A stretch of DNA of 54,953 bases from a virus (Duplodnaviria; Caudoviricetes), in IMG/VR virus record IMGVR_UViG_3300037785_000110, positions 1 through 54,953 of that record. One strand, written 5' to 3'. Positions 4,948 to 54,200 of this stretch are shown here, piece by piece. Position 1 is the first letter of the stretch. Each line of letters opens with the position of its first letter. The position numbers and the translations under genes were made by a program. Under the pieces are notes generated by a model that worked only from the letters and a program-made list of their open reading frames with translations, did no database searches and had not been told where the DNA came from.

Positions 4948-5200
4948 CAGCAGATTCCTTGCGATGGTGTGGATGGTTCGGGTTGGGGATCGCGCGGTAG
5001 AGACGGCCCGCGCTGAGGTAGGCCTGCACCATGCTGAACCTCCATGAGGCGGCCCAACCTGGATGGACGCGAGCACCCTCGTTCTGGCCAGGGGTCCCGT
5101 GCCACCATTCGATGACGTAGTGGCCCGCCGCGATCTCGTCCGCGAACTCCTGCATCGTCGTGATGCGCGGGCCGGTGAGGTATTTCAGGGGCCGGGCCAT
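4940..5200 (-). CDS. Hypothetical protein
   Basis: MARPLKYL..., TGATG coupling with the upstream gene. Confidence 0.65.
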   Translation of the reverse strand: MARPLKYLTGPRITTMQEFADEIAAGHYVIEWWHGTPGQNEGARVHPGWAASWRFSMVQAYLSAGRLYRAIPNPNHPHHRKESADV

Positions 5201-5931
5201 CAGGCCGCGACCCTCTTCTCCGTCACGAGAATGCCGGGGATCGCGGTGTGATCGACCTTGCTCGACCGCACGTCGGCCTCTGCCAGGCGCTGCAGGGCCG
5301 CGCGCACCTCTGGGGCGTCCTGGTAGTGCATGAACAGGAGCCGGACGTTGGTGATCTCCACCTGACGGATCGTGCGCAGCGCCACCGTGCGCCCGGCGCC
5401 GGATGCCGACTTGACGTTGGCGCTCTCCTTGCGCTTCGCTTCGCGCGCGGCCTCGTCGGCCGCTGCGCGGGCCGCCTCCGCCTCGAACTCGGCTTGCAGG
5501 TTGTTGGCCGCCTGCGCCTCGCGTTCCAGCCGCTCGGCTTCCTCGCGCGCCCGGCGGGCCTCTTCCTCGCGCGCCTTCCGGGCTTCTTCCTCGCGGCGCG
5601 CCTTTTCCTGCAGCCAAGGTTCCAGCTTCTTCTTGAGGCGCTCAGCGCAGACCTCGAGCTTTTTCTTGATGTCGCCGAAGTCCTTGTCGATCTTCCGCCC
5701 GGCTTCGAGATGCGGCTCCTTTGCCGTCGTGCGGGCCGTCTCGGCCTTCTTGTAGAGCCCGCGCAGCCCGCTGATCTGATCGGCCAGCGTCTGAGCGGTG
5801 GCCTCGTCGGCAATGGCCTCGAGGTCCAGCCACTGCTGGCTCGCCTTGATGAACTCGTCCGACGCCCGGACCAGGTCGGCAAAGACGTCGGGGTCATACG
5901 GGGGCGGGTTGTTGTGGCCCTGGTTGGTCAT
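5200..5931 (-). CDS. Coiled-coil phage protein with N-terminal GHNNPP motif
   Basis: GGAG RBS, long charged helix, located near the recombinase. Confidence 0.8.
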   Translation of the reverse strand: MTNQGHNNPPPYDPDVFADLVRASDEFIKASQQWLDLEAIADEATAQTLADQISGLRGLYKKAETARTTAKEPHLEAGRKIDKDFGDIKKKLEVCAERLKKKLEPWLQEKARREEEARKAREEEARRAREEAERLEREAQAANNLQAEFEAEAARAAADEAAREAKRKESANVKSASGAGRTVALRTIRQVEITNVRLLFMHYQDAPEVRAALQRLAEADVRSSKVDHTAIPGILVTEKRVAA

Positions 5932-9177: not shown

Positions 9178-9437
9178 CAGCCCGCCTCGGCCGGGGTGAC
9201 CCGCGCGTGGTAGCCGAACTGATGCAGGGCCAGGTTGATGTGGGAGATGGCCGTCAGCCGCTGATCGGAAGCCGCGTGCTGCAAGCCCAGCTGATCGAAC
9301 ATGAAAGACAGCAGCAGCGCATCATGCGACAAGCCCAGATGGTGGCGCGCCTCAAGGGTCGGGTCCGTTCGGCCCCGCTCCGCCGCAACGCGCTTCGCGG
9401 TCATGTGGGTGGCGTCTTTCATCTGCATCTCCTGCAA
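9177..9437 (-). CDS. First gene of the PL operon, hypothetical
   Basis: Immediately downstream of the predicted PL. The true start may be one of the internal ATGs after GGAG. Confidence 0.65.
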   Translation of the reverse strand: MQEMQMKDATHMTAKRVAAERGRTDPTLEARHHLGLSHDALLLSFMFDQLGLQHAASDQRLTAISHINLALHQFGYHARVTPAEAG

Positions 9438-9465
9438 CTGCCCAAAATTGGGCTGTCAGGAGGGC

Positions 9466-9494
9466 AGACTACATTGGGCTAAAGCCCTATGCAA
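9466..9494 (-). promoter_or_regulatory. PL-like sigma70 promoter
   Basis: Minus strand TTGCAT-17 nt-TAGTCT, with an operator in the spacer. Confidence 0.75.
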
Positions 9495-9515
9495 GCCTAA
9501 AGTGGGCAAAAGCCC
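9476..9515. promoter_or_regulatory. OL operators (two GGGC-WAAA-GCCC sites)
   Basis: GGGCTAAAGCCC at 9476-9487 and GGGCAAAAGCCC at 9504-9515. The identical pair recurs at OR. Confidence 0.85.
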
Positions 9516-9557
9516 GAAGGGCGCACATCGTCTTCAAGACGAATCAAGCTACGGGGT

Positions 9558-36957: not shown

Positions 36958-37514
36958 CACCGCCGGCCAAGGTCAAGGAGGCGATGGGGTGGCACTTGTG
37001 GGTCTGGGCGGTGAGTGTCGTGCTGATCCTCGCCAGCACGGTCTGGACCCAGGTCGCACAGTGGCGCGCTCCGAGTGGCCCGCCCGTGATCTTCGACCGC
37101 GTGGAGGCGCTGAACAGCCCCCTGCACGTCGGAGAGCGCCTGCTGGTCCGCGTCTATCGGGACAAGCTGCGCGATGACTGCCCGGTCACGTCCTTCCGGT
37201 CAGCAATCGACCAGGACGGCCGCACCTATGATCTGCCGGATCGCACCTACTCCGGCGGCCCCACCGACACCGAGTTCTTCGATGTCGAATACGACACCAC
37301 CAGCCTGCCGGTCGGGCAGTACGACCTGATCGTGGAGCTGTCCTACGCCTGCCCGGAGGAGACCTTCGTGATCGACCAGCCTGAGGCGCGCTTCCGCGTC
37401 CACAACGGTCTGGGCCCGGCGTCGATCGAGAGCATCGTCGAGCAGCAGAGCATCATCATCGAGGACCTGCAGCGGCAGGTCGAGCAACTCGTAGCCCCGG
37501 AGGTCAAGGAATGA
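36954..37514 (+). CDS. Membrane-anchored protein with extracytoplasmic domain (lysis cassette)
   Basis: N-terminal TM, two Cys, GGAGG RBS. Confidence 0.65.
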   Translation: MTPPAKVKEAMGWHLWVWAVSVVLILASTVWTQVAQWRAPSGPPVIFDRVEALNSPLHVGERLLVRVYRDKLRDDCPVTSFRSAIDQDGRTYDLPDRTYSGGPTDTEFFDVEYDTTSLPVGQYDLIVELSYACPEETFVIDQPEARFRVHNGLGPASIESIVEQQSIIIEDLQRQVEQLVAPEVKE

Positions 37515-38179
37515 CTGGCAAGACCCTGTATGCCCACTGGCGCGACGTGCCGTCCGAGGCCTGGCACTGGCCGTCCTTCTCGCCCGAGGAGATCGCCTGC
37601 CGTGGCACCGGCAAGCTGCTGGTGGACCCGCGCGCGATGGACATGCTGCAGGCCCTCCGCGACCGGATCGGCAAGCCGATGATCGTCAACTCGGGCTATC
37701 GCTCTCCCGAGCACAACCGGGCGGTCGGTGGCGCGGCCCGGTCGAAGCACATGGAGGGGATCGCCTTCGACGTGCGGATGGACAACCACGACCCGCAGGC
37801 GTTCATGGCGGCGGCGCGCGAGATCGGATTCAAGGGCATCGGGGAGTATCCCGACCTGGGCTTCACGCACATCGACGCGCGCGAGACGCCTGCACACTGG
37901 GCGGGCTCGACCGGGCGCTACTGGCCGACGCGCTCGGTCAACGACCGCTTCGCCCCCGAGGTCCAGCCGACTCCGGTGGCTGATGCGGCGAAGCAGGGCG
38001 CGGGCATCGTGGTCGCCGTGACTGCGGCCGAGGGCGTCCTGACTGACGTGGCCGACAAGGCGGCGCCGATCTTCCCGGCCGAGTGGATCAGCTACCTGCT
38101 GATCGCGGTGGCAGTCCTCGGCGTCGCCCGGGTGCTGCTGCCGCTGGTGCTGAAACCGCAGGAGGACGAGCAGGCATGA
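37511..38179 (+). CDS. Endolysin, peptidase M15A (YcbK-like) with C-terminal hydrophobic helices
   Basis: NSGYRSPEHNRAVGGA..SKHMEGIAFD...FTHID (Zn ligands H, D, H). Confidence 0.9.
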   Translation: MTGKTLYAHWRDVPSEAWHWPSFSPEEIACRGTGKLLVDPRAMDMLQALRDRIGKPMIVNSGYRSPEHNRAVGGAARSKHMEGIAFDVRMDNHDPQAFMAAAREIGFKGIGEYPDLGFTHIDARETPAHWAGSTGRYWPTRSVNDRFAPEVQPTPVADAAKQGAGIVVAVTAAEGVLTDVADKAAPIFPAEWISYLLIAVAVLGVARVLLPLVLKPQEDEQA

Positions 38180-39189: not shown

Positions 39190-39966
39190 ATGGCCACGAC
39201 GCCGCTGGACGATCTGCTCCCGAAACCCCAGGGTCTTGGCGCAGCCGCCGAGCCCCCGCCCGATCTGAGCAAGGCGCCCGCCACGCCGACCCCGCGCACG
39301 ATGACGACGGCCGTGACGCCGCCCGCCAACCCGATGCCGCCCGGGCTCGGGGTGGGGGCAACGACCGACGTAGGAAAGATCGCCGCCGAGTACGCCGCCC
39401 AGGACAGCGCGCTCATGCAGCGCGCGCGCACCGAGGGCCGCCAGATCGCGAACCAGCGCGGCCTGCTGAACAGCTCCATCGCCGCCCAGGCCGCGCAGAA
39501 CGCCATTCTCGACCGGGCGATCCCGATGGCGCAGCAGGAATCCCAGCAGCGCTTCCAAGCCGGACTGTCGGCACAGGAGTTCGGGCAGGCCAAGAACCTC
39601 TCCGCCCAGGAGTTCGAGCAGCAGAAGGGCCTGCAGGAGCAGCGCATCTTCGGCGAGATGGACCTCGCTCAACTGGATGCCGACACGCGGAAGACGTTGC
39701 TCGACATGGAAAGCGGGCTGAAGGAGCGGCTCGCCCAGCTGGACGTCGACACCGAGGACCGGACGAACATGATGTCCATGATCACCTCGTTCAACGACCA
39801 GTACCAGCAGGCCATGCGGTCGATCCTCTCGAACCCCGACATCGGGGCCGGGGATCGCAACGCCCTGCTGACTTCCGCAGGTGACTTCCTGCGGCGGCAG
39901 ACCGACATGATCGAGAGCCTGTACGGGTTCAAGATCAACTGGTCTGGTGGCAGCATCACCGCCTGA
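39190..39966 (+). CDS. Putative internal virion/ejection protein
   Basis: AAAGGAG RBS, ANQRGLLNSSIA..AAQ.A motif, Gln-rich helices. Confidence 0.7.
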   Translation: MATTPLDDLLPKPQGLGAAAEPPPDLSKAPATPTPRTMTTAVTPPANPMPPGLGVGATTDVGKIAAEYAAQDSALMQRARTEGRQIANQRGLLNSSIAAQAAQNAILDRAIPMAQQESQQRFQAGLSAQEFGQAKNLSAQEFEQQKGLQEQRIFGEMDLAQLDADTRKTLLDMESGLKERLAQLDVDTEDRTNMMSMITSFNDQYQQAMRSILSNPDIGAGDRNALLTSAGDFLRRQTDMIESLYGFKINWSGGSITA

Positions 39967-40460
39967 TGGGGCGCGCCCACATTCGCCCGGCCCATTTCGC
40001 CGACATACCGCGGATCATGGAGATCCTCGACTGGGCCCATGGTGCGTCGCGCTACGCTGCCTTCTCCGGGATCGACCGCCGCAACGCCAAGGCCGTCCTG
40101 GTCAGCTGCATCGGGCAGCAGTCCATCATCCCGGGCCCGAACACGACAATGACCGTGGTGGCCGAAAGGCACGCCGAAATCGAAGCCATCCTGATCGGGG
40201 TGCTGCGCCCGCTGTACGAGGGCCTCGACGTCTGCATCGCCACCGACCTGCTGTGGCTGGCCAAGCCCGGGGCCGACGCCCGCAGCGCCAGGCGCATCCT
40301 GAACGCCTTCCATCGGTGGGCTGGGCAGTACGACGGGCACGTCGTGATCCGTCATGGCGTCATGGACGCAATCGGTGACCCGGCGGTCGTCGGGCGCATC
40401 TTCGAGAAGGCAGGCTTCCGGCGGGCCGGGGCGATCTACGAGAAGGAGATCACAGCATGA
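39966..40460 (+). CDS. GNAT-fold protein of the virion core module
   Basis: IRPAHFADIPRI start and IFEKAGFRRAG end, typical of GNAT folds. Confidence 0.7.
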   Translation: MGRAHIRPAHFADIPRIMEILDWAHGASRYAAFSGIDRRNAKAVLVSCIGQQSIIPGPNTTMTVVAERHAEIEAILIGVLRPLYEGLDVCIATDLLWLAKPGADARSARRILNAFHRWAGQYDGHVVIRHGVMDAIGDPAVVGRIFEKAGFRRAGAIYEKEITA

Positions 40461-40956: not shown

Positions 40957-41526
40957 ATGGAAATGATGCAGGGGCTGGGCGCAGGCGCGCCGCAGCCGCA
41001 AGAGGATCGCGCACAGGCCATGACGCCCAACGGCGCCAAGGAAGCCACGCCCGAGCAGCAAGCGCAGTTCGACAAGTTCGTGCAGATGTCCATGGTCATC
41101 CTGTACGACCCGCAGTTCGTGCAGAAGGCCCGCGAGATGATCCGGGGCCCGCAGGGGCCGGTCGAGGGTGTGGCCGATGTCGGCATTGCCATCGTGTCGC
41201 GGATCATCATGCAGGCCCAGAAGGAGCGCCAGCAGATCGACCCCGCCGTCATCCTTCATGGCGGGTGGCAGGTGATCAACTACATCGCCGAGGTCGCGCG
41301 CCTCAGTGCGGGCGTTGACCTGTCCGACGAGGACGTGGAGACTGCCTATTATCTCGCGGCCGACAAGCTGCGCGCTGTGCTCGACAAGGCGGGGCTGACG
41401 ACCGGTGGGCCGTCTCCCGAGCAGATGATCGAGCAAGCCCGCACCGATGTCGGTGACGACCAGCTGCGATCCGCCCTCGAGCGCACGCAGAAGGCCCGCC
41501 GCAACCCGATCGGAGGTGCTCAATGA
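40957..41526 (+). CDS. Hypothetical protein in the ejection module
   Basis: GAGGAG RBS. Confidence 0.75.
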   Translation: MEMMQGLGAGAPQPQEDRAQAMTPNGAKEATPEQQAQFDKFVQMSMVILYDPQFVQKAREMIRGPQGPVEGVADVGIAIVSRIIMQAQKERQQIDPAVILHGGWQVINYIAEVARLSAGVDLSDEDVETAYYLAADKLRAVLDKAGLTTGGPSPEQMIEQARTDVGDDQLRSALERTQKARRNPIGGAQ

Positions 41527-42251
41527 GCATGATCTTGGGGGGGCTGGCGGCCGGTCTCGGCGACGGTCTGGTGGAGCTGGCCAAGCAGCGGCGTGAAGAC
41601 TTCCTGAACGCCCAGAAGCGGCAGCAGGATCTCGAGGACGAAGATCGCAGGGCAGGCCGGTCCCGATCCGGCCGCACCGGCGGGACCGGGGGCCGGACGG
41701 GGGGCGACGACCGCTTCAAGCCGATCAGCCGCGGGCTCACCGGCGACATTCGCCAGTGGGGCGCCGACAACGACCTCGACGAGGCGACGATCCAGCGCTT
41801 CATCACCGAGGTCGAGCGTGTCGTCGGCACCGAGGGCATGACCGAAAACCAGGCGTGGAACTACGTCCTGACGCATGCAGGCCGCGGGGACCTCGAAGTG
41901 CGGACCCCCGCCCGGATGCCCTGGGGCGAAGACACCGTGGAGACCAAGCCGGGAGAGGGGCCCTACGACGGGACCTTCAACTATCCCGACAGTGCGCCCG
42001 CCGCCGCCCCGCGCGTGCCCGAGGGCCTGGGCGCCGGGGCATCTCCGGAGGCCCAGACGGACGTTCCCGGTCTTGGCACCCCGCGTCAGGCCGCACCGCA
42101 GGTCACGCGACCGCAGATCGACGGCCCGCCCGCGATGCCCGGGGCAGGGCGTAGCGGCCCGCCCGGCGCGCCGCCGGTCGGCACCATCATGGACGGCTAC
42201 CGCTTCAAGGGTGGCGATCCCGCAGACGAGAAGAACTGGGAGCCGGTGTAG
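41523..42251 (+). CDS. Putative ejection protein
   Basis: LGGLAAGLGDG N-terminus, C-terminal GTIMDGYRFKGGDPADEKNW. Confidence 0.7.
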   Translation: MSMILGGLAAGLGDGLVELAKQRREDFLNAQKRQQDLEDEDRRAGRSRSGRTGGTGGRTGGDDRFKPISRGLTGDIRQWGADNDLDEATIQRFITEVERVVGTEGMTENQAWNYVLTHAGRGDLEVRTPARMPWGEDTVETKPGEGPYDGTFNYPDSAPAAAPRVPEGLGAGASPEAQTDVPGLGTPRQAAPQVTRPQIDGPPAMPGAGRSGPPGAPPVGTIMDGYRFKGGDPADEKNWEPV

Positions 42252-45200
42252 ATGGCAAAGCCTTGGGAGCGGTTTCAGGGAACGAAGAAGCCGTGGGAGC
42301 AGTTCCAGAGCGACGCGCGGTCGGCACAGCCCGCCCCGCTTGCGCCGCCGCCGGAAGCCGGGCGGCTGCCCGGTCTTGGTGCGCCGGACCCCGAACCGGC
42401 CCCGGCCGCGCCCGAGGCGCCGCGCCGGTCCTCTGCCATCCTGCCGGGCGACGGGCGCGCGATTGCAGATGCCGCCCGCCCGGAGACGCGCGGAGAACGG
42501 CAGTACCGTGAGCTGACGAACCCGCCTCGCCCGGTCCCGGTCGAGCCGCAAGCGCCGGAAGAGCGCCGCCCCGGTGTCGGGTCCTCGACCCGTCGGGACT
42601 CCCTGCAGGCATCCCGTGACCGCGCCGCCGAGGCAGATGCCGGTCGCATCCCCCAGCCGATGTCCGATCTCGGGAAGCGGGTTTGGGAAATGGTCGTAGA
42701 AGGTGCGGCCAGCAACCTTGAGGGCGGCGTGTCGCGTGAAGGCAACCCGGCGCCATCCTTCCCGGAGTTCCGGTCCGGTGCCGAGGATCGCCTTGCGCAG
42801 CGGCGCGATCAGTTCTCCTTCGCCACGCGCCTCCTGATGTCCGGCACCGGCCCCGACGGGAATCCGCTGACCGATGCCGAGCGCGCCGACCTGCAGTCCG
42901 CGCAGGCCTGGGCGCGCGAGGAGATCGCCCGCATCGAGACGGAAGTGGGGGCTCTGACGCCGAACCCGCCCGCGACCTGGGCCGACAGCCGCAGCTTTGA
43001 GGCAGGGAATGACCTGCGGGCATGGGGTGAGAAGCTGGTGGGTGCGCCCGATCCGCAGTTCGATGACCGCTTTGCGTCCTCGCTGGCCAGCGGCGCCGGG
43101 AGCATGGCGTACTTCATCGGCGTCGGCATCCTGACCGGCGGTGTCGGTACCGCCTACAGCGGTGCCACGATGAACCAGTCGCAGGTCTACCGGGACGCCC
43201 TGGCCTTCGGCGCCGACGAGGACACCGCGCGCCAGGCCGCGCGCTGGGGTGCGGTGATCGGATCTTCCGAGGTCATCCCGATCATGCGCGCGCTTGAGCC
43301 GCTCGAGCGCTACGCCCCGGGGATCAAGAACCGGGTGGCGGCCGCGATCATCAAGAAGATCGGCGGCAACGCGACCGAGGAGGCCATTCAGGAGGGCACG
43401 TCGCAGGTCCTGAACAACCTGGTCGCCAAGGGCTACTACGACCCCGAGCGCGGGATCACCGAGGGTGTGGCCGAGTCCGCCCTGATCGGCGCGATCCTTG
43501 GCGGTGGTGTCGGTGCCATCGGCGCGGCGCGGCCGGGCGGCCTGACAGAAGATGCGGCACCCGGTGCCGATCCCGACCCGCAGCGGCTGAACAGCCCCCG
43601 CCTGACCGAAAGCGACCGTGCCAGCCCGATCCCCAACGACGTGATCGACGACGGGAAGGCAACGATCGAGGCCGTTCTGAACGGCGCACCGCTGCCGCCC
43701 GTGGCCACCCCCGCGCAGCCCGCGCCGCCGGTCGGCACCGACCAGGTCGCGCAACCCCCCGCACCCGTGCCGCCGTCCGCACCCGAGGCACCGGCTGGAC
43801 TCGGTGCGCCGGCCGCGCCTGATGCGCCGCCTGTGGCCCCGGCGGCATCGGTCGAAGGCCGCCGCCTCGGTGAGCCGATGCCGGTCATCGACGGCGATGA
43901 AGTGGTGCCCGGGCAGTATGTCGCTCAGGACCTCGACACCGGCGAGTTCGTCGACGTGTCCGACCAGGTGCAGCAGTCGCAGCAACCGCCCACGCCTCAG
44001 CCCGATGGCAAGACCCAACCCGAGGAGACCGATGCCGCACCCGCCCCGCCGCCCGCCGCACCCCGCCCGGTTCCCGATGCTGGTGACCAGACGCCCGTGG
44101 GGCTTGGTCCGGTGGATCGGCCGCAGGCAGGCGCGGATGCTGCGGCGTCGAGCGTAGAGGTCCCGGCGGCCGCAGAGCCGCGGCGCGTCCCGGATCAGGC
44201 TCAGGCCCCCGCGCGCCCGGCCCAGTCCCGCCCCGTCCGCCAGCCGCCCGACCGGGCCGCTTTCCCGGACACGGCCGAGGGCAACGCCCGCTTTGCCGAG
44301 GCAGACGCGCGCTGGGCCTACGGCAGCTTGACTCGCCCGGTCATCACGACGCTGCGTGACAACGGCATCCGGATCGACCCGAACGGGAAGGCTGCCATCG
44401 ACCTCGAGGCCATGGGCGTCACCCCCAGGACGGCCCCCGGCCTGTTCAAGCGTGGCGGCCTCAAGGACCTCGACAACATCGTCGCCAGCGAGTTCGAGGC
44501 CCTCCGGGAGATCGTGAAGACCGACGACGGCACGGGGTACTTCGACCTCGAGGACCTCAAGTCGGCCATCTCGGAAGAGGTCAGCAAGAGCCCGCGCTTG
44601 CCGGATGCGGTGCGACAGGCCGTGAACCTGCGCGAGGAAGCGGATCGCCGGCGCTCGGTCCGCGGGCTTGTCGACCAGTGGTCCGACGAGAACGAGATCA
44701 GTGCGCTGACAGAGGCCGAGAAGGAGGATATGGTCGAAATCCTCCTTGCGGAGCCCGATTATGAAATCGAGGATGCCGCCGAGCGCGTGTTCATCCGCAG
44801 CGAACGGGACAGTGAAGCCGATGTACGAGCATCTGACCAAGGAAGGGCAGGCGGCCGCCAAGCGGTTGAGGACGAGATCCCGTTTGGGGAAGTTGAGCCC
44901 CGAGGACCAGAAGGAAGCCGACCGGCTCCTGACACTGGCCGAGCAGATCAACCGGGCCAAGGCGAAGCGCAAAGCGAAAGGACCGACGCAGGCGAGCAGC
45001 TCCTGACGCCTGGCGTTGCCCCGATCACGGAAGCCGATCGCCAGCAGGCCGAGGTCACCCGCCGGTCCGATGCGCCGATGCGCGGGCGCAACGAGGGCCC
45101 GGCGTCCGGGCGTGACGACCTCTTCGGGAACCCGGAGGACCGCCGCGACCTGTTCGACGCGCCGCAGGCAGAGACCGAAACCGCTCGGCAGGTCGACGAC

Positions 45201-48200
45201 CTCGGTAACCCGGTCCCGAATGTCTCGACGCGGCAGGTCGGCACGACGCCGCAGGAGGCGCGTGATCAAGCCCGCGCTCGCCGTGAGGCGCAGTCCGGCC
45301 CCAAGGCGTCGCCCGCGGCCCGGCGCGCGCTCGACACGCTGAGCAAGGAAGAGCGCGCCCGGCTCGACGACATCAACAAGCGCCTGGCGGACAAGCTGCG
45401 GAACCAGACCAACAGCGGTCTGGACCCCGAACTGGTGTCGCTGGCAGTCGAGAGCGCCACGCTCTACGTCAAGGCCGGGGTGCGCCGCTTCCGCGAGTAC
45501 ATCACCGCCCTGGCCGATGCCACGGGCCTGCCCATTCAGACGCTTGGGAGATATGCCCGCATCGCGTACAATGACGTCCGCGACGAGATGGAGGCCAATG
45601 GCGAGGCCGTCGCCGACATGGACGACAGCCGCGCCGTGATCCAGGAACTCGCCCGGCTGAACCGCGAGGAGCGCGACAATGCACCAGGCACCGGCGGCGA
45701 TCTGGAACAGGATCGCGGAGACGCAGGACCTCAAGACGGACTGGGCGCAGCAGATGTTCCCGCTGCCGCCGGACGAGATGTCGAAGGCGCTGGACCGGGA
45801 GGAGGCGCGGATCGCCAAGGCGGTGGGCGGCGACGCACTGGTGGCGGCGGCGTATCTGCGGGTGATGCCGCTGGTCTGGGAAGCGGACGCGATCGAGGGA
45901 CTGGCGCGGATCGACGGGCCGAACCCGGCGCTTCCGCTGATCAGGACCGCGCAGGAAGCCGTGATCGTCGCCAGCAACGACTACCCGATGACGAAGGCAC
46001 AGCAGCAGACACTGCACGGGCTGCTTCGGACGCACCCGGACAAGGAGACCGGGCGCGGCAGCAAGCAGAAGCAGACCGCCTGACCGTCAAGCCGGGCGAC
46101 GAGGCCAACGTTCGCGCCACGCTGCCCCTGCTTCTTCCCGAGCAACAGGACGACGTGCTCAAGGTCGAGCGGCGCTTCGCCAAGCCGGACGGCTTTGGCA
46201 TGCTGCTGACCAACAGCACCGGGACCGGGAAGACGTACTCCGCCGGCGGGGTCATCAAGCGCTTCGCTCAGCAGGGCAAGACCAACGTCCTGATCCTCGC
46301 GCCGTCGCAGGGCATCCTCGACGCCTGGGTCGGCATGGGCAAGGATCTCGGGCTCGACATCACCAAGCTGGCCGACACCGGCACCGCAGGTGATGGGATC
46401 GTGGCAACGACCTACGCCAACGCCGCGGCCAACGATGCCCTCGCCAAGCGCGAGTGGGACCTGATCGTGCCGGACGAGGCGCACAACCTGTCCTCGAACC
46501 AGGCCGGTGAGCAGACCGGCGCGCTGAAAGCGCTCCGGGCGGTGTCGAACCATCCGGACGGGCGGTACACCAAGGCCAAAATGCTGCTGGCCGACGAGTG
46601 GGCGAAGGCCGAGGCCATGCCGCCCGGCAAGCCACAGGATGCGGTAAAGCAGGCACTGTGGACCAAGACCCGCGACCTGGCCGACAGCCTCAAGGCCCGG
46701 GGCCGGTCCCGCGTCCTGTTCCTGTCTGCGACGCCCTTCGCCTACGACAAGAACACCGACTATGCCGAGGGCTACCTCTTCCAGTACGGGGAGGATGGCG
46801 TCACGGATTCCGGGTCGCGCCAGTCCGGGCGCAACCTCTTCATGGTGCAGAACTTCGGCTACCGCATCCGCTACCACAAGCTGACCCAGCCCGAGGCGGC
46901 GGTGGATCGCGGCGTGTTCGAGCGCGAGTTTCACGAACGCCTCAAGCGTGAAGGGTCTCTGTCGGGCCGGTCGCTGTCGGTCGAGGCCGACTATGACCGC
47001 CGGTTCTCGGCCGTGGACAGCACCATCGGCAATGACATCGACCGGGCACTGGAATACCTGCGCAACAAGCAGAGCGAGAAGGGCGCGGGCGAGGGCTGGC
47101 GCCAGGTCAACAAGCTGGTGACGCGGCACTTCGGCTATCTCGAGCGCATGCAGCTCCTCGAGGCGATCAAGGCCGAGAAGGCGATCCCGGACATTCGCAA
47201 GCACCTCGACATGGGCCGCAAGGTCGTCGTCTTCCACGACTTCAATGTGGGCGGTGGTCGGTCCCCGTTCTCTCTGCCGATCGGAGACGGGGAGCTGGGC
47301 TACGGCGAGTTCACGACGTTCCTCGCTGAAAACCCCTATGTGACCAAGCTGGATTTCTCGGGCCTGGCCGCGCCGAAGGAACAGATCAAGGCGGCGTTCG
47401 GGACGCGGGCGAGGGAGTACAATGGCACGGTGCCGAACCGCGAGCGCGCGGCGGCCAAGGAGGCCTTCAACCGTGATGGCTCCGGTGTCGACGTGCTGAT
47501 CGTGCAGTCCGCCGCAGGCGAGGCGGGCATCTCCCTGCACGACACCAGCGGCAAGCACCAGCGCGCCCTGATCAACCTCGGGATGCCGACGCGGCCGGTC
47601 ACGACCTTGCAGCAGGAAGGCCGCATCCGGCGGGTGGGGTCCGTCTCGGACGCCATCTTCCGCTACTACACCATCGGCACGACCTGGGAGCGTGAGGCCT
47701 TCGCCCGCAAGATCGCCGAGAAGAGCGGCACGGTCGAAAACCTGGCCCTGGGCAACGAAGCCCGGGCAATCCGCGAGTCCTTCATCGAAGCCTACACCGA
47801 GGCCGACCGGCATCCGCCGGGCATGGAGGGCGAGGGCAAGGGCGGCAAGGACCGGGACCGCAGCGTTGCCCTCACGTCGCCCTACGAGCAGGCCAAGACG
47901 CACTACTTCGCCCGGCAGAAGAACACCCGCAACCGGCAGTCCCGGCAGGGCATCGACTTCTATGCGACCCCCGAGCCGCTGGGCTTCAAGATGGTCGGAT
48001 GGGCCGGCGCGCGCGAGTACGAGAAGGTCCTCGAGCCGTCGGCGGGCGATGGAGCGATCGCGCGCTACTTCCCCGAGAACACCGATCGGACCATCATCGA
48101 GCCTTCGGCAGACCTCGCATCGCAGGCCCAGCTGCGCACGGCCGGCGCGCGGTCCGTCACCGGCACCTTCGAGGGCTACCACATCAACAACAAGCACGAC

Positions 48201-51200
48201 GTGATCGTGATGAACCCGCCGTTCGGGAACGGCGGGAAGACGGCCTATGAGCATGTCGCCAAGGCGATGAAGCACCTCCGCCCGGGTGGGCGGATCGTGG
48301 CCCTGGTGCCCCGCGGTCCGGCGGCCGACAAGAACATGGCCAAGCTGCTCGATCCCGAAATGGTGAAGGTGGACGAATGGCACCTGACCGCGTCGGTAGA
48401 GCTTCCGCCGGTGGCGTTCGAGAAGGCCGGGACCAGCGTGCGCACCTACGTCATGGTTCTCGACCGCACCATGGAGCCGGTCGACGCGCCCACGCGCCGG
48501 ATCAACATGACCGGGGCCGAGAGCATTGCCGAGTTCTTCGAGCGCCTGGAAGGGATCGACGTCCCGGCCCGGCCTGCGGCCCTGGTGGAGCCCGGGGCCA
48601 TCGCCGAGATGTCGAACGCGGCCGACGAGGCCGCCCTGACCATCCAGATCCCGGAGGTGGCGGCGGCGGCCGACGGCTTCGACACCTTCGACTTCGCCCA
48701 CAGCCAGACCGGGGAGCGCAAGTACGGCGCCAACGCCAAGGAGCGCGTCACCCGCGAGCAGTACGACGCGATGAAGGAGGTGGCTCGCCAGCACGGCGGC
48801 TACTGGTCGCGCTACCAGAACGCCGCTCAGGGGGCCAAGCGCGGCTTCCTGTTCCCGTCGGCGGACGACCGGGACGCCTTTGTGGACGCCATGACGCGCC
48901 CGACGGCGGTCAAGGAGCAGCGCCGCCTGACGATGCAGGACGACGACAATGCGACCGAGGGCGTCTTCTACAGCCCGCTCCTGCGGGCGGTGCAGGGGGC
49001 GAAGCAGACCAAGGCCCCGGCGGGCGACTGGAAGGCCATCCTGTCGAAGATGCCGGGCGTCAAGCAGGTGGAGATCGAGTGGATCGGGGTCTACGACTGG
49101 CTCGACAGCCAGGAGGGCGCGCAGGTCCCGCGCGCGGCGCTCGAACAGTTCATCCGAGATGGGCAGATCGACCTGGTCGAGGAGGTGCTGGGAGACCGCA
49201 TGTCCTATCTGTCCGACGCATTTGACTCCGCCCGGGAAGACGAGATGTTCGAGGGGTGGACGGATGCAGAGATCGAGGAACAAATCCTCGCGGATGCCGA
49301 GGCCGAAGGCAGTTACGAACCGCCTCGCTTCGAGGAATACACCGAGCGCGGCGGCGAGAACTACCGCGAGGTCCTGATCCGGGTGCCGAACCTGCACGAG
49401 ACGGGGAAGAACCTCCCCGATCCGACATATGACCGCGCAGCGCAGGAGCGCGACCGCAAGCGCATGGAAGAAATCTATGCCGAAAACGGCGTCTCCACAT
49501 CTGACATGCAGGCAGTTCTGCGGCTGAACCGTGAGAACGACGAGCTTCGCCAGATCAATGATCGACTCGTGCAGCGCGACATGAACGATCGTGGCAAAAG
49601 CCCCTTCGTCCAGTCCGCCCACTTCGTGCAGGAGAACATCGTCGTTCACGCCCGGCTGAAAGATCGCTCCGGCCCGAACGGTGAGCGCATCCTGTTCGTG
49701 GAGGAGATCCAGTCCGATCTGGCGTCGAAATGGCGCGAGAACACCGAGAGCCCAGAGGTGACGGCCCGGCGGCGGGAGTTGGAGGCTGAAGCGTCGACGT
49801 TGCAGCGCGAGAACGAGCGCACGCTGGCTCGGGTGCAGCGGCGAGCCGAGCGGACCGGCAAATGGGATGCGGATTGGTCGATCGTGGCCGCCGCGCAGGC
49901 CATCGAAGAAGCTATCGGAATTGTGCGTGGCGACGAGAGCCCAAGGCGCGCCAGCGACCCCATCCGCAGAAGCGGCATTGTCAATGAAATGACCGGGCCG
50001 GAATGGGCTGATTTGCGCGAGGAAGTACAGGCGCAGTTTGACCGAGACAAAGAGCTTCGAGATGCAAGGCTCGCCCTCGGCACCGAGCGCAGCATGGACC
50101 CCAGCACACCTGACACCCCGTTCAAGGAGGAACACACCTACGCGCTGATGGTGAAGCGGCTTCTGCGCATGGCGGCGGAGCAGGGCTATGACCGGCTCGC
50201 CTGGACGCCGGGCTACATGCAGGCCGAGCGGTGGAACAACGCCGCGCAGAGCGTGGTGGAGGAGGTGGAGTGGTATTCGCCTGACCAGGTGGCGCTGGCT
50301 CAATATCGCTATGTCGACCTCACCATGTCCGACGGCGGCCGCACAATCAGCACGTCCGTCACGCCGCAGGGCGTGATCGAAGGCGCGGCGGGGAACGATA
50401 TGCTGGAAGGAAAGGCGCTGTCCGCGCTGATCGGCCCCAGCCTCGCCCGACAGATCATGTCCGAGCCTTCCGGCTCCATCACCGGCCAGAAGATCACCTT
50501 CCCGGACTCGGGCTATGCCATCGCCTACGATCAGCAGATCAAGCGCTCGGTCGACCGGATTGCCAAGGGCACCGGGGCGCGGGTGGAGCAGGCGCGGGAT
50601 ATGCCGGATTTCTCTCGCACTGTTGACGAGGATATGCTGGCGCCAGTTGTGGCAAACCTTACGCCAGAGCAAGCGCTGCAGGTCGCTGTTGATGGCGTAG
50701 AGGAATCGGCTCAGACCGTCTCTTTGTGGAAGGCGAAGATCGCAAAAGATGGACCACGCGCCCTCCTGTCCATCCGCCCGCGCAGGCTTGCCGAGCGCCT
50801 TGAGCGAATGGGAATCGCAATCCCCGGCAACCCCGTCTGGTCCATCACGATCACGCCCGAACTGCGTGAGAAGGCACTGGCCCCGCAGCCGATCCTGCAG
50901 AAGCCTGCCTTCGGCGCGCAGAACGCCACGATCATGGACGAGGCCACGGTGCGCGAGCTTCTGCCGGGTTTCCGTGAGCGCCTCGAGCGCGTCGGGCTTG
51001 GCCGGGTGCGCCTGGGCATCGACCTGACCGGCCAGCGCCAGGGGGCCATGCTGGTGAACCGCATGGGGGCCATCGACATCTTGATCGGGGCCAGCCTCAA
51101 TCCGAAGGCGACACTCTATCACGAGGTGATCCACGCGCTTCGGGTCGGCAACCTGTTCTCCGATGCGGAGTGGTCGCGCCTGTCCAAGCGTGCCGAGGAA

Positions 51201-54200
51201 ACCTGGATTGCCAAGCACCAGATCGAGGAGCGCTACCCGGACCTGACCCGCGAGGAGCAGATCGAAGAGGCGATCGCCGAGGAGTTCGGCGTCTGGGCCG
51301 CGGGCCGGGACGACAACCCGGGCGGCATCCGGCTGACCTTCGACAAGATCAAGCGGTTTCTCAAGGCCATCGCGGAAGCCCTGACGTCGCGCGGGTTTTT
51401 CACTGCCGATGACGTGTTCGGGAAGGTTCTGTCCGGCGAGGTCGGGCGCCGTCACGCCGGCAACACCGGCTCCCGCCGCCGCATGTTCCCGATCGGCCTG
51501 GAAGGCATGCCCGACGAGGCGGTGGCCGCGCAGCGCGATCAGACGCTCGACAGCCCCCAGAGCCCGCAGTTCAAGCGGTGGTTCGGCGACAGCAAAGTGG
51601 TCGGCTCCGACGGCGCGCCGCTGGTGGTTTACCATGGGACCAACGCGGATTTCGAGGCCTTCGACCCAAAGAAAGTCGGCAGCACCTTTAACGACGACAA
51701 GAAAGGATTCTTCTTCACGAACAGCACTGGCGAAGACATGGCCAGTGGCTACGCCACGATGGAAGGTGCGCGCGACGGAGGAAACATTATTGCTGCGTAC
51801 GTAGCGCTGCAGAATCCATACACCACCAGAGATTACCTCTTCGGCATCGGCTACAGTGACGCAGAACTAGACGCCATGACACCTGTCGAGATGTCTCGTG
51901 AAGCCCTAGACGGGCGCGGCGTCGTCGGCTGGTGGGACTACATGAAGAGAAGCTTGATGCCAGACATTGAGCGAGGTGGCTTTGATGGCGTTCTGTTAGA
52001 AGATTTTGACATGAACGTCCGGGGCGAACCCGAGAAGCTTGTGGTCGCCTTCCGGCCTGAGCAGGTCAAGTCGATCTTCAACCAGGGCACTTTCAACCCC
52101 GACACCGCGATCATGCGCGAGCAGCGCCCGGCGCGCGCGGTGCGTCGTCTCTCCGCCGCCGGCCGCCAGAAGGTCGCGCAGTCCACCAACACCTCGCACA
52201 TTCCGGATCGGCGCGTCTTCGACGAGCTCGCCCGGCGCAATGTCTCTGTGCTGGACCGGATCGGCGGGGCGCGAGGCGCGATCATGGACCGGATCGACCG
52301 GACGCGGATCGTGCTGCAGGACCGGATGCTTCCACTGCTCCGCGCCGAAGAGGGCATCACGGCAACGACCGGCGACAAGATCGACCGGGCGGACTCGGCT
52401 TACTTCGCCGAGGAGCGCTATTCCGGGCGCGTCGGCGCGCGGCTGGATGCCATCGACGAGCAGTTCACGAAGCCGATCATCGGCCTGATTGCCGATGCCA
52501 GCAACAGCAAGGCAGGGGCCATCACGCTCACCGACAAGGATGGCCGCACCCGGACCGGGGCTGATGCCGCTGGGATCTGGCTGGCGGCCCGGCACGCTAA
52601 GGAGCGCAACGCGCGGATCGCGGCCATCAACCCGAACATGCCCGACGGCGGCGCCGGGATGACCAATGCCGAAGCCGATGCCATCCTCTCCGAGGCAGCG
52701 TCGAGCCCGCACGCTGATCGGCTGCGGAAGATCGGTGTCCTGACAGACCGGCTCGGTCGCCAGATGATCGACTTGCGCGAGCAGGCCGGGCTGCTGACCG
52801 GCGATGAAGCCGACACCTGGCGGCGCATGTACCAGCACTATGTCCCGCTGCGCGGCTTCTCCGAGACGGAGATGTATGACCTGGTGGTCAACGAGTATTC
52901 CGGGATCGGCCGGCGCTACACCGTGCGCGGCCCGGAAACCCAGCGCGCCCTGGGGCGGACGTCGGAGGCCTTCAACCCGTTGGCGACCATTCTGACCATG
53001 GCTCAGGAGGTGTCCATCCGGGCAGAGAAGAACCTGGTCGGGCAGGCGGTCGTGCGACTGGCGCAGCGCTACCCGAACCCGGCCATGTGGGAGGTCTCGA
53101 AGCCGGAAACCCAGCGCTTCTACAACCGCAAGTCCGGCTACGTCGAGAGCCGCGTGGTCGGGCCGACGGCGCGCCCGATGGGCCCGAACGAGATGGCCGT
53201 GAAGATCGACGGTGTCGAACACCGGCTGACCCTCAAGGACCCGCGTCTTGCCTCGGCACTGGGCCAACTGGGCAGCGAGCAGATGGGCGTCTTCATGCGC
53301 GTCATGTCCGGCTTCTCGCGGTACTTCTCCGCCATCAACACCATGCTCTCGCCGCCGTTCATCATCGTGAACGCCTTCCGCGACATGGTGACCGCACAGG
53401 TCAACATGGGCGAGCAGGTGCCCAAGGGCATGCAGGCTCGCGTCCGAAAGGCGGCCCTCGGCAACTGGGGCCGGGCGTTCCTTGGCGCGTACAAGGGTAT
53501 GGGTGGCAAGGCCAACACCCAGTGGGCACAGCACTTCAAGGAGTTCGAGGCCAGCGGCGCCAAGGTGTCGTTCTGGAAGATCGAGACGCCGGAGCTGATG
53601 GGGGCCGACCTCGAGCGGCGCATCGGCCTTGCGTCCGGGACCAAGCTGGGAAGCAAGCTGCGTCGGCTGGTACGACCGTCGACGCGCGACAACCCGGCGC
53701 TGGCATGGATCGAGCGCGTGAACCTCTCGGTCGACAACGCGGTGCGCCTGGCGTCCTTCGTCGAGGCCCGAGCCGCAGGCATGTCGATCGAGGACGCCGC
53801 GTCGCTCTCGAAGAACCTGACGGTCAACTTCAACCGCCGCGGCGAGATTGGCGCGCAGATGAACGCGCTCTTCCCGTTCGCCAATGCCGCGATCCAAGGC
53901 TCCCAGGTCCTGATCAAGGCCATGGGGTCGCGCCAGGTGAAGGCGACCGTGGTCGGCATGGTCCTCTTCGGCATCGCCAATGACCTGCTGAACGCGATGC
54001 TCTCGGCGCGCGACGACGACGACGAGCTCGAATACGACCAGATCCCCAACTACATCTTGGCCCGGAACCTGGTGCTGGCGACCCCGTGGGACGAGACCTT
54101 CGCCACCGTGCCGCTGCCCTACGGCTACAACGCCTTCTTCTATCTCGGGAACCGGATCGGGAAGGTGATGCGCGGCGTGGTGCCGGCAGATCGCGCGGTC

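What the first reader, a model, noticed from the sequence alone, without database searches (positions are those of the whole stretch)
44022..46083. Repeated pattern: three +1-frame ORFs occupy successive linkers of the giant gene
Seen: the ORFs at 44032, 44821 and 45679 are all in the +1 frame. Each begins where the giant frame reads an acidic run ending D-A, D-V or N-A (EETDA, SEADV, EERDNA). In two of the three this run spells GAGGAG...ATG. Each covers a disordered linker preceding a folded block. Inference: the polyprotein may have grown by reading through small upstream genes, capturing partner-plus-enzyme cassettes while the partner stays independently translated. This would be a general design for polyvalent proteins that I do not know to be described.
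Basis: partly seen in the sequence, partly recalled or inferred. Interest (0 to 1): 0.8.

Follow-up and report, generated by a model that had tools for sequence, protein, structure and literature searches.

The report
Hidden genes inside giant phage gene
One of the three small reading frames is a real, widely conserved protein gene hidden in a second frame inside the floppy linker of a giant phage protein gene; a second is probably real and the third is probably chance.

Summary

- **ORF 45679..46083: a real gene.**
  - It carries the phage's normal codon usage, while the giant frame loses it there.
  - Its product folds confidently: pLDDT 90.
  - The family has 547 clusters in a 1.84-billion-protein library.
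  - It sits in the same +1 position in 47 of 49 loci examined. These include Ruegeria, Serratia, Klebsiella, Pseudomonas and 45%-GC Vibrio phages.
  - It has an invariant ATG, a Shine-Dalgarno in 41 of 47 loci and a stop 46-67 codons ahead of the helicase P-loop in 38 of 47.
  - The giant frame stays open through it far beyond chance and is predicted disordered exactly there.
- **ORF 44821: probably real.** It has the codon signature and positional analogues, but no homologue.
- **ORF 44032: probably chance.**

Related phages nest further +1 genes, including an HNH endonuclease. The read-through-capture idea is plausible but unproven. This scan has reported the same kind of nesting on other DNA. 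My literature searches found no description of it.

The parts
42252..54953 (+). Giant DarB-like polyvalent protein gene, 4233 aa, complete (TGA at 54951-54953).
   Evidence: Pfam finds ResIII, Helicase_C, MTS, ART-PolyVal and LPD38. Synteny with the DarB-like genes of the named phages: an acetyltransferase gene lies upstream here and in Parlo, Skulduggery and ZX1, where lysis genes follow the giant gene.
45679..46083 (+). Nested gene 'family A', 134 aa, in the +1 frame. Residues 1-120 are the conserved all-alpha fold. Residues 121-134 are a window-specific tail.
   Evidence: Codon phase switch. 30 homologues at 45-78% identity. 547 clusters. Nested in 47 of 49 loci. AF2 pLDDT 90.3.
45666..45671 (+). 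Shine-Dalgarno GAGGAG, 7 nt before the ATG of family A.
   Evidence: An SD core is present in 41 of 47 loci, against 11% of control +1 ATGs.
45544..45572 (+). Candidate internal sigma-70-like promoter (TTGGGA-17-TACAAT), 107 nt upstream of the family A start, inside the coding sequence of the upstream domain.
   Evidence: 2 sites found against 0.1 expected. The closest relative L045 has TTGGCC-17-TATAAT at the same place, while 14 other loci end the hexamer in C. This is a consensus match only.
45318..45677 (+). Folded helical 'X' domain of the giant protein, directly upstream of the overlap.
   Evidence: pLDDT 82-97. Conserved in 20 loci. A homologous domain stands in one frame with family A in P0036.
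45678..46040 (+). Giant-frame linker that shares its DNA with family A. It is Gly/Arg/Asp/Ala-rich and predicted disordered.
   Evidence: translation. pLDDT 29-47 at segment residues 124-240. Giant-frame identity 0.28 against 0.41 for the nested frame. Kept open beyond chance.
46137..46505 (+). Start of the SF2/SNF2-type helicase module (ResIII hit, giant residues 1296-1418). The P-loop lies 46 codons after the family A stop.
44821..45006 (+). Probable second nested gene: a 61-aa basic helical peptide in the +1 frame.
   Evidence: Second strongest phase switch. Positional analogues lie before the same giant-frame motif in L001, L003, L037 and L045, and one search shows a similar short basic +1 peptide in L002 whose position before that motif was not checked. 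No homologue was found. Against one strain variant, 2 of 4 SNPs are silent only in the +1 frame.
44706..44734 (+). Candidate promoter-like site (CTGACA-17-TATGGT), 87 nt upstream of ATG 44821.
   Evidence: Consensus match only.
44032..44157 (+). 41-codon +1 ORF in a Pro/Ala-rich linker, preceded by GAGGAG at 44022-44027. Probably a chance ORF.
   Evidence: No codon preference for +1 (-0.05 per codon; -3.81 vs -3.76). Not flagged. The product is Arg/Pro-rich. No tblastn match in 36 loci.

Best explanation
The window's last gene encodes a 4233-residue DarB-like polyvalent protein of a tailed phage. It is read in one frame from 42252 to 54953.

Inside it, in the +1 frame, lies a separate gene at 45679..46083 (family A). 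It is translated from its own Shine-Dalgarno and ATG into a compact all-helical protein of about 120 residues. The same DNA, read in the giant frame, gives an unstructured spacer of about 120 residues between a small helical domain (X) and the helicase-methyltransferase module. So one frame carries a fold and the other a tether.

A second, shorter +1 gene (44821..45006) probably does the same in the preceding linker. The third ORF (44032) is most likely a chance frame in a Pro/Ala-rich stretch.

Inferred, not shown:
- Family A is a dedicated partner of the neighbouring X/helicase module, for example an assembly or packaging helper or a regulator. The analogy is with the small proteins that accompany DarB in phage P1.
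- Nesting keeps partner and enzyme co-inherited and co-expressed.
- The spacer frame arose when the giant frame came to read through a pre-existing small gene. The +1 geometry is the only one in which that is cheap, because every stop in the reading-through frame needs a T at the resident gene's wobble position.
For: Real gene:
- At 45627-46077 the giant frame's GC by codon position is 0.88-0.98 / 0.54-0.78 / 0.44-0.64 (0.44-0.48 in the core windows 45702-45927), against about 0.65 / 0.45 / 0.9 elsewhere. That is the normal pattern shifted by one base.
- It is the top frame switch in the gene.
- 30 database homologues at 45-78% identity share an invariant M1.
- A profile finds 547 clusters at E<=1e-3 and 408 at E<=1e-10. 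The best 150 are all 566 aa or shorter, and most are 115-140 aa starting at residue 1.
- AF2 gives pLDDT 90.3 and pTM 0.83.

Conserved nesting:
- Nested in the +1 frame in 36 of 36 viral contigs, 6 of 6 named phages including two Vibrio phages at 44-45% GC, and 4 of 6 genome contigs.

Independent start:
- SD core in 41 of 47 loci, against 360 of 3256 control ATGs.
- A +1 stop directly precedes the ATG in 13 loci.

Giant frame is read:
- It is open in all 47 nested loci. Per-locus chance was computed for 43 of them and is 0.05-0.84.
- Joint log10 P is -6.5 for 9 lineages under 50% identical and -18.5 for 29 loci.
- A related DarB-like giant protein is found in virions by mass spectrometry (PMC9144972, passages).

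Order/disorder complementarity:
- The giant-frame segment has pLDDT below 50 at residues 124-240, flanked by folded X (82-97) and helicase (75-93).

Module link:
- P0036 carries X (50% identity over 64 residues, E 2e-20) and family A in one frame.
- The family A stop lies 46-67 aa before the helicase P-loop in 38 of 47 loci, and upstream of it in all 47.

Geometry:
- Mean P(open) is 0.30 for the frame the giant gene uses, against 0.0012 for the other frame.

Generality:
- Further nested +1 families exist. One is an HNH endonuclease (PHROG 3377, E 2e-45), with the giant frame open through it at P 0.011 and 0.051.
Against: - There is no expression data. No RNA run holds the stretch, and no proteomics could be checked for the nested products.
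- In the window alone, neither frame's openness is significant: 0.60 and 0.22.
- The function of family A is unknown. It has no Pfam or PHROG family and no fold match: 0 Foldseek hits at E<=0.001, best VIA Z 4.3.
- No locus shows the unfused state that the capture model predicts.
- For ORF 44821 there is no homologue. The analogues are not BLAST-significant, and only 4 SNPs fall inside it.
- The promoter-like sites are consensus matches.
Confidence: 0.85

Rival explanations
1. All three ORFs are chance open frames of a GC-rich gene and none is translated.
For: ORF counts match shuffled controls. The strand also carries 1485- and 1884-aa antisense ORFs typical of GC-rich DNA. ORF 44032 fits this reading.
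Against: For 45679: amino-acid conservation down to 27% identity across alpha- and gammaproteobacterial phages, including 45%-GC genomes. Also the codon phase switch, a confident fold, SD enrichment and 547 clusters.
Confidence: 0.03
2. Recoding: ribosomes translating the giant gene shift into the +1 frame, so family A is made as the C-terminal end of a truncated giant protein rather than as a separate protein.
For: Both frames are open and adjacent. Phages use programmed frameshifts elsewhere (general knowledge; PMC5009743 seen in a search listing only).
Against: A +1-frame stop directly precedes the ATG in 13 of 47 loci and lies within 11 codons in 27. The ATG is invariant and an SD is present in 41 of 47. 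Database proteins start at residue 1 of the domain.
Confidence: 0.04
3. Opposite direction of origin: the linkers came first and the small genes arose de novo inside them by overprinting. There was no capture of pre-existing genes.
For: No unfused intermediate in 49 loci. Overprinting is the usual origin of viral overlaps (PMC8227390 and PMC3494269, abstracts only).
Against: The nested frame has the genome's normal codon usage and a compact fold, while the giant frame has the odd composition and the disorder expected of the younger frame. Families A, C and E occur as in-frame parts of ordinary proteins. One nested gene is an HNH endonuclease, which cannot have arisen in a linker.
Confidence: 0.15
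4. The giant ORF is not one protein. The upstream part and the helicase part are made separately, and the frame across family A is open without being used.
For: In the window alone the giant frame would stay open by chance 60% of the time.
Against: It is open in 47 of 47 nested loci, with joint log10 P of -6.5 to -18.5. It is also open across the nested HNH gene at P 0.011 and 0.051. No ATG/GTG/TTG lies near the helicase N-terminus in the window; there is only CTG at 46080. GenBank annotates single CDSs. A related giant protein is in virions.
Confidence: 0.05

Closest known systems
Rz1 embedded in Rz (two-component spanin genes of lambda and many phages, including Parlo and Bcep22-like phages)
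   Same: A small gene lies wholly inside a larger gene on the same strand in the +1 frame, with its own start. Both products are made, and they work together. The embedded class is mentioned in PMC9144972 and PMC6606913 (passages). The lambda details are recalled.
   Different: Rz1 is a lipoprotein of the lysis cassette, and Rz is about 150 aa. Here the host gene is a virion polyvalent enzyme of more than 4000 aa, the overlap falls in a disordered inter-domain linker, and several unrelated nested families occur along one gene. There is no sequence or fold similarity.
comS inside srfAB of Bacillus subtilis (recalled, not checked here)
   Same: A small, independently translated ORF lies out of frame inside a giant multi-module gene.
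   Different: comS is a 46-aa regulatory peptide inside a folded NRPS module of a cellular operon. Family A is a folded 120-aa protein over a disordered linker. It is conserved across many phage genera and tied in position to one module.
Hepatitis B virus polymerase spacer overlapping preS/S (recalled, not checked here)
   Same: The tolerant, disordered spacer of a multi-domain protein shares its DNA with a constrained gene in another frame.
   Different: That is an animal virus with a compact genome and a different frame relation and biology. It is a resemblance of logic only.
Phage P1 Dar system: DarB with small co-packaged proteins Ulx, DdrA, DdrB, Hdf
   Same: A helicase-methyltransferase antirestriction protein works and is packaged together with small accessory proteins (PMC12810830, passages).
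   Different: In P1 the small proteins are separate, non-overlapping genes. Family A gave no tblastn match to any P1 record at E<=1e-3 among the 8 records hit. A partner role for family A is inferred, not shown.
Polyvalent proteins (Iyer et al. 2017, PMC5512222)
   Same: The giant gene is a member: it has ART-PolyVal and LPD38 domains together with a helicase and a methylase.
   Different: The main text of that paper has no occurrence of 'overlapping' or 'frameshift'. Its 'nested' and 'reading frame' hits concern other things (find mode). Second-frame genes in the linkers are not part of the published description as far as I could see.

Membership tests
Same-strand nested (dual-coding) gene pair | Both frames are open over the whole overlap. 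| tested here: met
   47 of 49 loci.
Same-strand nested (dual-coding) gene pair | The nested frame is under protein-level selection. | tested here: met
   Invariant and near-invariant residues across 24-30 sequences. Nested-frame identity 0.41 against 0.28 for the giant frame, with the nested wobble position most variable. Confident fold.
Same-strand nested (dual-coding) gene pair | The containing frame is kept open by selection. | tested here: met
   Joint log10 P of -6.5 (9 lineages) to -18.5 (29 loci) under synonymous shuffles of the nested gene. The window alone is not significant (0.60).
Same-strand nested (dual-coding) gene pair | Both products are actually made. | not testable with these tools
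   No RNA holder is listed. No proteomics is available for the nested ORFs. The supplements of PMC9144972 are closed.
Polyvalent / DarB-like virion protein | Many unrelated enzymatic domains in one polypeptide, with family-specific LPD and ART-PolyVal domains. | tested here: met
   Pfam LPD38 2.4e-37 and ART-PolyVal 9e-23, plus ResIII, Helicase_C and MTS.
Polyvalent / DarB-like virion protein | Packaged in the virion and delivered with the DNA. | not tested
   Only by analogy: gene position among structural genes and JC1 gp69 in the virion proteome.
Programmed ribosomal frameshift product | The +1 segment is reachable only from the upstream frame and has no start of its own. | tested here: not met
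   Invariant ATG, SD in 41 of 47 loci, and a +1 stop directly before the ATG in 13 loci.
P1 Ulx/Ddr-type DarB accessory proteins | Sequence or fold relationship to the P1 proteins. | tested here: inconclusive
   tblastn of family A against 50,697 phage records hit 8 records, none of them P1. No fold match in PDB or BFVD. I did not verify that P1 is in the collection.
Embedded spanin (Rz1) | Lipoprotein signal and a position in the lysis cassette. | tested here: not met
   Family A begins MHQAPAAIWN with no signal-like or lipobox segment. It lies in the DarB-like gene, upstream of the lysis genes.

The most novel reading that the evidence does not exclude
Giant polyvalent virion proteins of phages are built as 'two-frame operons'. 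Their disordered linkers are systematically dual-coding, and each hosts an independently translated small partner gene, or even a homing endonuclease. These proteins grow by reading through resident small genes in the one frame (resident at +1) where every stop can be removed silently. That would make second-frame genes a regular, overlooked part of the antirestriction and counter-defence arsenal, and a general route by which multi-domain proteins acquire linkers.
Probability: 0.4. Interest if true: 0.85.

Novelty: new variant of a known kind. Interest (0 to 1): 0.72.

Why it matters
- **Missing annotation.** In six of six named phage records examined, the only feature annotated under the match is the giant CDS, so a protein family with hundreds of sequence clusters is missing from curated phage annotation.
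- **The rule gene callers use.** Gene callers do not allow long same-strand overlaps (general knowledge). The arrangement shows that this can hide real genes exactly where phages keep their counter-defence enzymes.
- **A design rule.** One stretch of DNA gives a fold in one frame and a disordered tether in the other. There is also a simple codon-level reason why the nested gene is always at +1.
- **A route to function.** If the small proteins are partners of the DarB-like modules, they are handles for working out how these injected giants are assembled, packaged or controlled.
- **Testability.** Clean separation-of-function mutations are available, silent in one frame and null in the other.

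Tried and rejected
**Function and fold of family A**
- Pfam and PHROGs gave no family.
- Foldseek against PDB and BFVD gave no hit at E<=0.001.
- VIA-align wide gave a best Z of 4.3, which is uninformative for a helical protein.
- The ESM Atlas gave no usable hit.

**Binding of family A to the upstream X domain**
- Complex prediction returned no verdict: score 0.02 against a mark of 0.32. It counts neither way.

**ORF 44821**
- No tblastn hit in 36 loci at E<=1.
- No homologue of 33-107 aa in the 5.8-billion-protein set.
- No relative of the ORF in the metagenome contigs, and none of the giant-frame domain before it in viral or metagenome contigs.
- It therefore rests on codon signature, positional analogues and four SNPs.

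**ORF 44032**
- No support was found.

**Expression**
- No RNA holder is listed for 44600-46400.
- Contigs of four DNA runs were laid. One run carries a 98.7%-identical strain with 24 SNPs, too few for a selection test. Parts of the stretch without cover in runs X4 and X6 mean nothing.

**Context of database homologues**
I could not see whether the roughly 120-aa database proteins are nested or free-standing on their contigs.

**Kin genomes**

**Literature**
- Searches found no paper describing second-frame genes in DarB-like or polyvalent genes.
- Subscription journals and supplementary files were not searchable. The JC1 proteome supplement, which might hold peptides, could not be seen.

**Considered and dropped**
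- Assembly frameshift errors: 47 independent loci share the frame relation.
- Minus-strand coding: the minus-strand frames score below the nested frame.

Full report
**What is at the coordinates.**
The window is a 54,953-base virus record at 67% GC. Its last gene, 42252..54953, is a complete 4233-codon ORF whose TGA is the final triplet of the window. Pfam finds ResIII and Helicase_C, a methyltransferase, ART-PolyVal and LPD38. It is therefore a DarB-like polyvalent protein. An acetyltransferase gene lies about 2 kb upstream, as in the Parlo, Skulduggery and ZX1 records, where the matching giant gene is followed by lysis genes.

The giant frame reads EETDA, SEADV and EERDNA there, and GAGGAG precedes two of them. 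That part of the pattern is forced. A +1 ATG makes the giant frame read xAT-Gxx, and a GGAG-type ribosome site makes it read Glu/Gly/Arg codons.

**Is it more than chance?**
As bare ORFs, no.
- The giant gene holds 18 +1-frame ATG ORFs of 40 codons or more, against a mean of 13.5 in 500 synonymous-codon shuffles (P 0.048).
- It holds 12 against 9.5 at 60 or more (P 0.16), and 4 against 4.4 at 100 or more (P 0.70).

What separates the three is the coding signature.
- Across 45627-46077 the giant frame's GC by codon position turns from about 0.65/0.45/0.9 to 0.88-0.98/0.54-0.78/0.44-0.64, with third-position GC of 0.44-0.48 in the core windows 45702-45927. That is the genome's normal pattern moved by one base.
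- I trained a codon model on the giant gene itself. ORF 45679 scores +0.50 per codon for +1 over the giant frame, the maximum in the gene (null mean -1.0, sd 0.32).
- ORF 44821 scores +0.30.
- ORF 44032 scores -0.05.
- A scan of the whole gene flags only 44796-45020 and 45666-46082.
- Minus-strand frames score lower than the nested frame.

**ORF 45679 is a real gene, and the nesting is conserved.**
- Its product has 30 database homologues at 45-78% identity, about 120 aa long, with an invariant first Met.
- A profile of 24 diverse members finds 547 clusters at E<=1e-3 and 408 at E<=1e-10 in 1.84 billion representatives. The best 150 are all 566 aa or shorter, and most are 115-140 aa starting at domain residue 1.
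- AlphaFold gives a compact all-helical fold for residues 1-120 (pLDDT 90.3, pTM 0.83). The window-specific tail 121-134 is unconfident.

In context:
- All 36 viral contigs that encode a relative have it in the +1 frame of a giant ORF of 2322-5383 codons, some cut by contig ends.
- So do 6 of 6 distinct named phages: Ruegeria 45A6, Serratia Parlo, Pseudomonas Skulduggery, Klebsiella ZX1, and Vibrio 1.232.O and D274 at 44-45% GC. In each record the only feature annotated under the match is the giant CDS.
- So do 4 of 6 genome contigs.
- The two exceptions are a degraded copy (L048) and a free-standing gene (L046, below).
- An SD core lies 4-18 nt before the ATG in 41 of 47 loci, against 360 of 3256 (11%) other +1 ATGs in the same giant genes.
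- In 13 loci a +1 stop directly precedes the ATG, which excludes entry by frameshifting from upstream.

**The giant frame is also kept.**
I shuffled synonymous codons of the nested gene in 43 of the 47 nested loci. The giant frame stays open with probability 0.05-0.84 per locus, and 0.60 in the window. The +1 frame stays open given the giant-frame protein with probability 0.002-0.44, and 0.22 in the window. So the window alone proves nothing.

Taken as independent, 9 lineages under 50% identical give joint log10 P of -6.5 and -10.5, and 29 loci under 90% identical give -18.5 and -29.8. Over 29 non-redundant loci, amino-acid identity is 0.41 in the nested frame and 0.28 in the giant frame. The nested wobble position is the most variable: 0.45, 0.39 and 0.50 for nested positions 1, 2 and 3.

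I modelled the giant-frame segment 45318-46532 with 20 relatives.
- The X domain folds (pLDDT 82-97).
- There is no structure at residues 124-240 (pLDDT 29-47).
- The helicase start folds (75-93).
- The overlap is residues 121-255. The giant frame regains structure just where the nested protein's conserved part ends.

So one frame carries a fold and the other a tether.

**Position and links.**
- The family A stop lies 46-67 codons before the helicase P-loop in 38 of 47 loci and 175-362 codons before it in the other 9. It is upstream of the helicase in every case.
- The domain just upstream in the window (X, 45318-45677) is conserved in 20 loci.
- In database protein P0036, a homologue of X (50% over 64 residues, E 2e-20) and family A stand in one frame. 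By fusion logic this suggests the two work together.
- A direct complex prediction gave no verdict, so binding remains inferred.

**The pattern is general.**
The frame-switch scan of 37 giant genes flagged only the +1 frame. It flagged family A in all 37 and further segments in many loci. Their +1 ORFs form families:
- B, in 5 loci just upstream of family A.
- C, in 3 loci. It matches the N-terminus of P0033 (E 2e-6).
- D, in 2 loci. It is an HNH endonuclease (PHROG 3377, E 2e-45), with the giant frame open through it at P 0.011 and 0.051.
- E, in 2 loci. It is fused in frame behind family A in a free-standing 373-aa gene of a Bradyrhizobium island with an integrase (E 3e-11).
- F, in one lineage.

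Why always +1? With family A genes, synonymous shuffles leave the frame used by the giant gene open with mean probability 0.30, and the other frame with 0.0012. A stop in the reading-through frame needs T at the resident's wobble position.

**ORF 44821.**
It has the second-best coding signature. It has no homologue in any search, and the domain before it has no relatives either.

It ends just before a conserved giant-frame motif (T-D/E-A-G-D/E-Q). In L001, L003, L037 and L045, short basic helical +1 peptides end at the same place, with lowered giant-frame third-position GC. L002 has a similar short basic +1 peptide, but I did not check its position against that motif. The similarity among these peptides is not BLAST-significant.

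Against a 98.7%-identical strain in one seawater run:
- Of the 4 SNPs inside this ORF, 2 are silent only in the +1 frame, and the other 2 are T>S and R>K in that frame.
- Of the 18 SNPs outside both ORFs, 13 are silent in the giant frame.
- The sample is too small for a test.

I put it at about 0.55 that this is a translated gene.

**ORF 44032.**
It shows no frame preference, its product is Arg/Pro-rich, and it is not conserved. I put it at about 0.1.

**Promoter-like sites.**
The only two sigma-70-like matches on the + strand of 43800-46300 lie 87 nt before ATG 44821 and 107 nt before ATG 45679, against 0.1 expected. The second reuses a conserved Tyr-Asn of the X domain.
- The window has TACAAT there and its closest relative L045 has TATAAT, both with a -35-like hexamer.
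- The 14 other loci end the hexamer in C.
- This is suggestive only.

**Mechanism and origin.**
- Shown: two overlapping frames are both under selection; one encodes a folded small protein with its own start signals; the other encodes a disordered spacer of a giant multi-enzyme protein.
- Inferred: family A is a partner of the adjacent X/helicase module. The analogy is with the small proteins packaged with P1 DarB (PMC12810830, passages).
- Inferred: the spacer frame is the younger one, born when the giant frame read through a resident gene.
  - For this: codon usage, fold against disorder, the read-through HNH gene, and the frame geometry.
  - Against this: no unfused intermediate in 49 loci.

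**What is known.**
- Nested same-strand genes are known in phages. Rz1 embedded in Rz is mentioned in PMC9144972 and PMC6606913 (passages).
- The paper that defines polyvalent proteins has no 'overlapping' or 'frameshift' in its text (PMC5512222, find mode).
- Six literature searches found no description of second-frame genes in these giants. Supplements were closed, and subscription journals are not covered.
- Earlier notes of this same scan report the same kind of nesting in DarB-like or polyvalent genes of at least eight other genomes. Those are AI notes, not independent evidence.

**Verdict.**
- This is a new variant of a known kind, and a widespread protein family missing from the annotation of the named phage records I examined.

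Noticed in passing
L011 6563..7042; L017 7058..7597: An HNH endonuclease gene (PHROG 3377, E 2e-45) sits in the +1 frame inside the giant gene of two related viral contigs. The two copies are 51% identical. The giant frame is open through it at chance 0.011 and 0.051.
   Followed up: partly
L002 9275..9487; L003 about 9330..9547; L006 about 5120..5296; L009 9734..9934; L013 9761..9937: A second conserved nested +1 family ('B', about 60-70 aa) lies in the linker just upstream of family A. It has no Pfam or PHROG match.
   Followed up: partly
L017 8774..8962; L014 6977..7177; L011 8330..8647; also L011 14174..14344 and L014 14120..14284: Two more nested +1 families. 'C' also forms the N-terminus of database proteins P0033 and P0036. 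'E' is also fused behind family A in the Bradyrhizobium protein of L046.
   Followed up: partly
L046 10001..11122: A free-standing 373-aa gene (family A plus family E plus more) lies in a Bradyrhizobium chromosomal island. Within 20 kb the island also has an integrase, a PrimPol/DUF3631 gene, an SNF2 helicase, an N6-methylase, a deaminase and a TIR-domain gene.
   Followed up: partly
L001, giant frame just after 10363: The helicase P-loop of this contig's giant protein is interrupted right after GTGTGK by a stretch that looks like an intein (Hint-like sequence).
   Followed up: no
P0071 (566 aa database protein): It carries two tandem family A domains followed by DUF6794 (E 2e-12). P0166, P0172 and P0139 have family A at the N-terminus of 360-560-aa proteins with no known domains.
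   Followed up: no
window 41520..45977 (-) and 45981..51635 (-): Antisense ORFs of 1485 and 1884 codons run opposite the giant gene. They score worse than the + strand frames in the region tested and look like the usual GC-rich artefact. The break between them falls inside family A.
   Followed up: partly
window 46039..46083: The window's family A gene runs 13-14 codons past the point where all homologues stop. The tail is unconserved, has low pLDDT, and carries an E>G change in a near-identical strain. The giant frame is already structured there.
   Followed up: partly
window 44982..45060: A short giant-frame motif (T-D/E-A-G-D/E-Q followed by a Pro-Gly-x-x-Pro-Ile-Thr-like stretch) is conserved at 52-67% identity in L003, L037 and L045, directly after the linker that holds ORF 44821. 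Its role is unknown.
   Followed up: no
window 37511..38179; 39966..40460: A peptidase/endolysin-like gene (PHROG 17373, E 1e-57) and an acetyltransferase gene (PHROG 1249, E 4e-10) lie upstream of the giant gene. Seven of the ten ORFs tested between 33492 and 42251 have no PHROG match.
   Followed up: no
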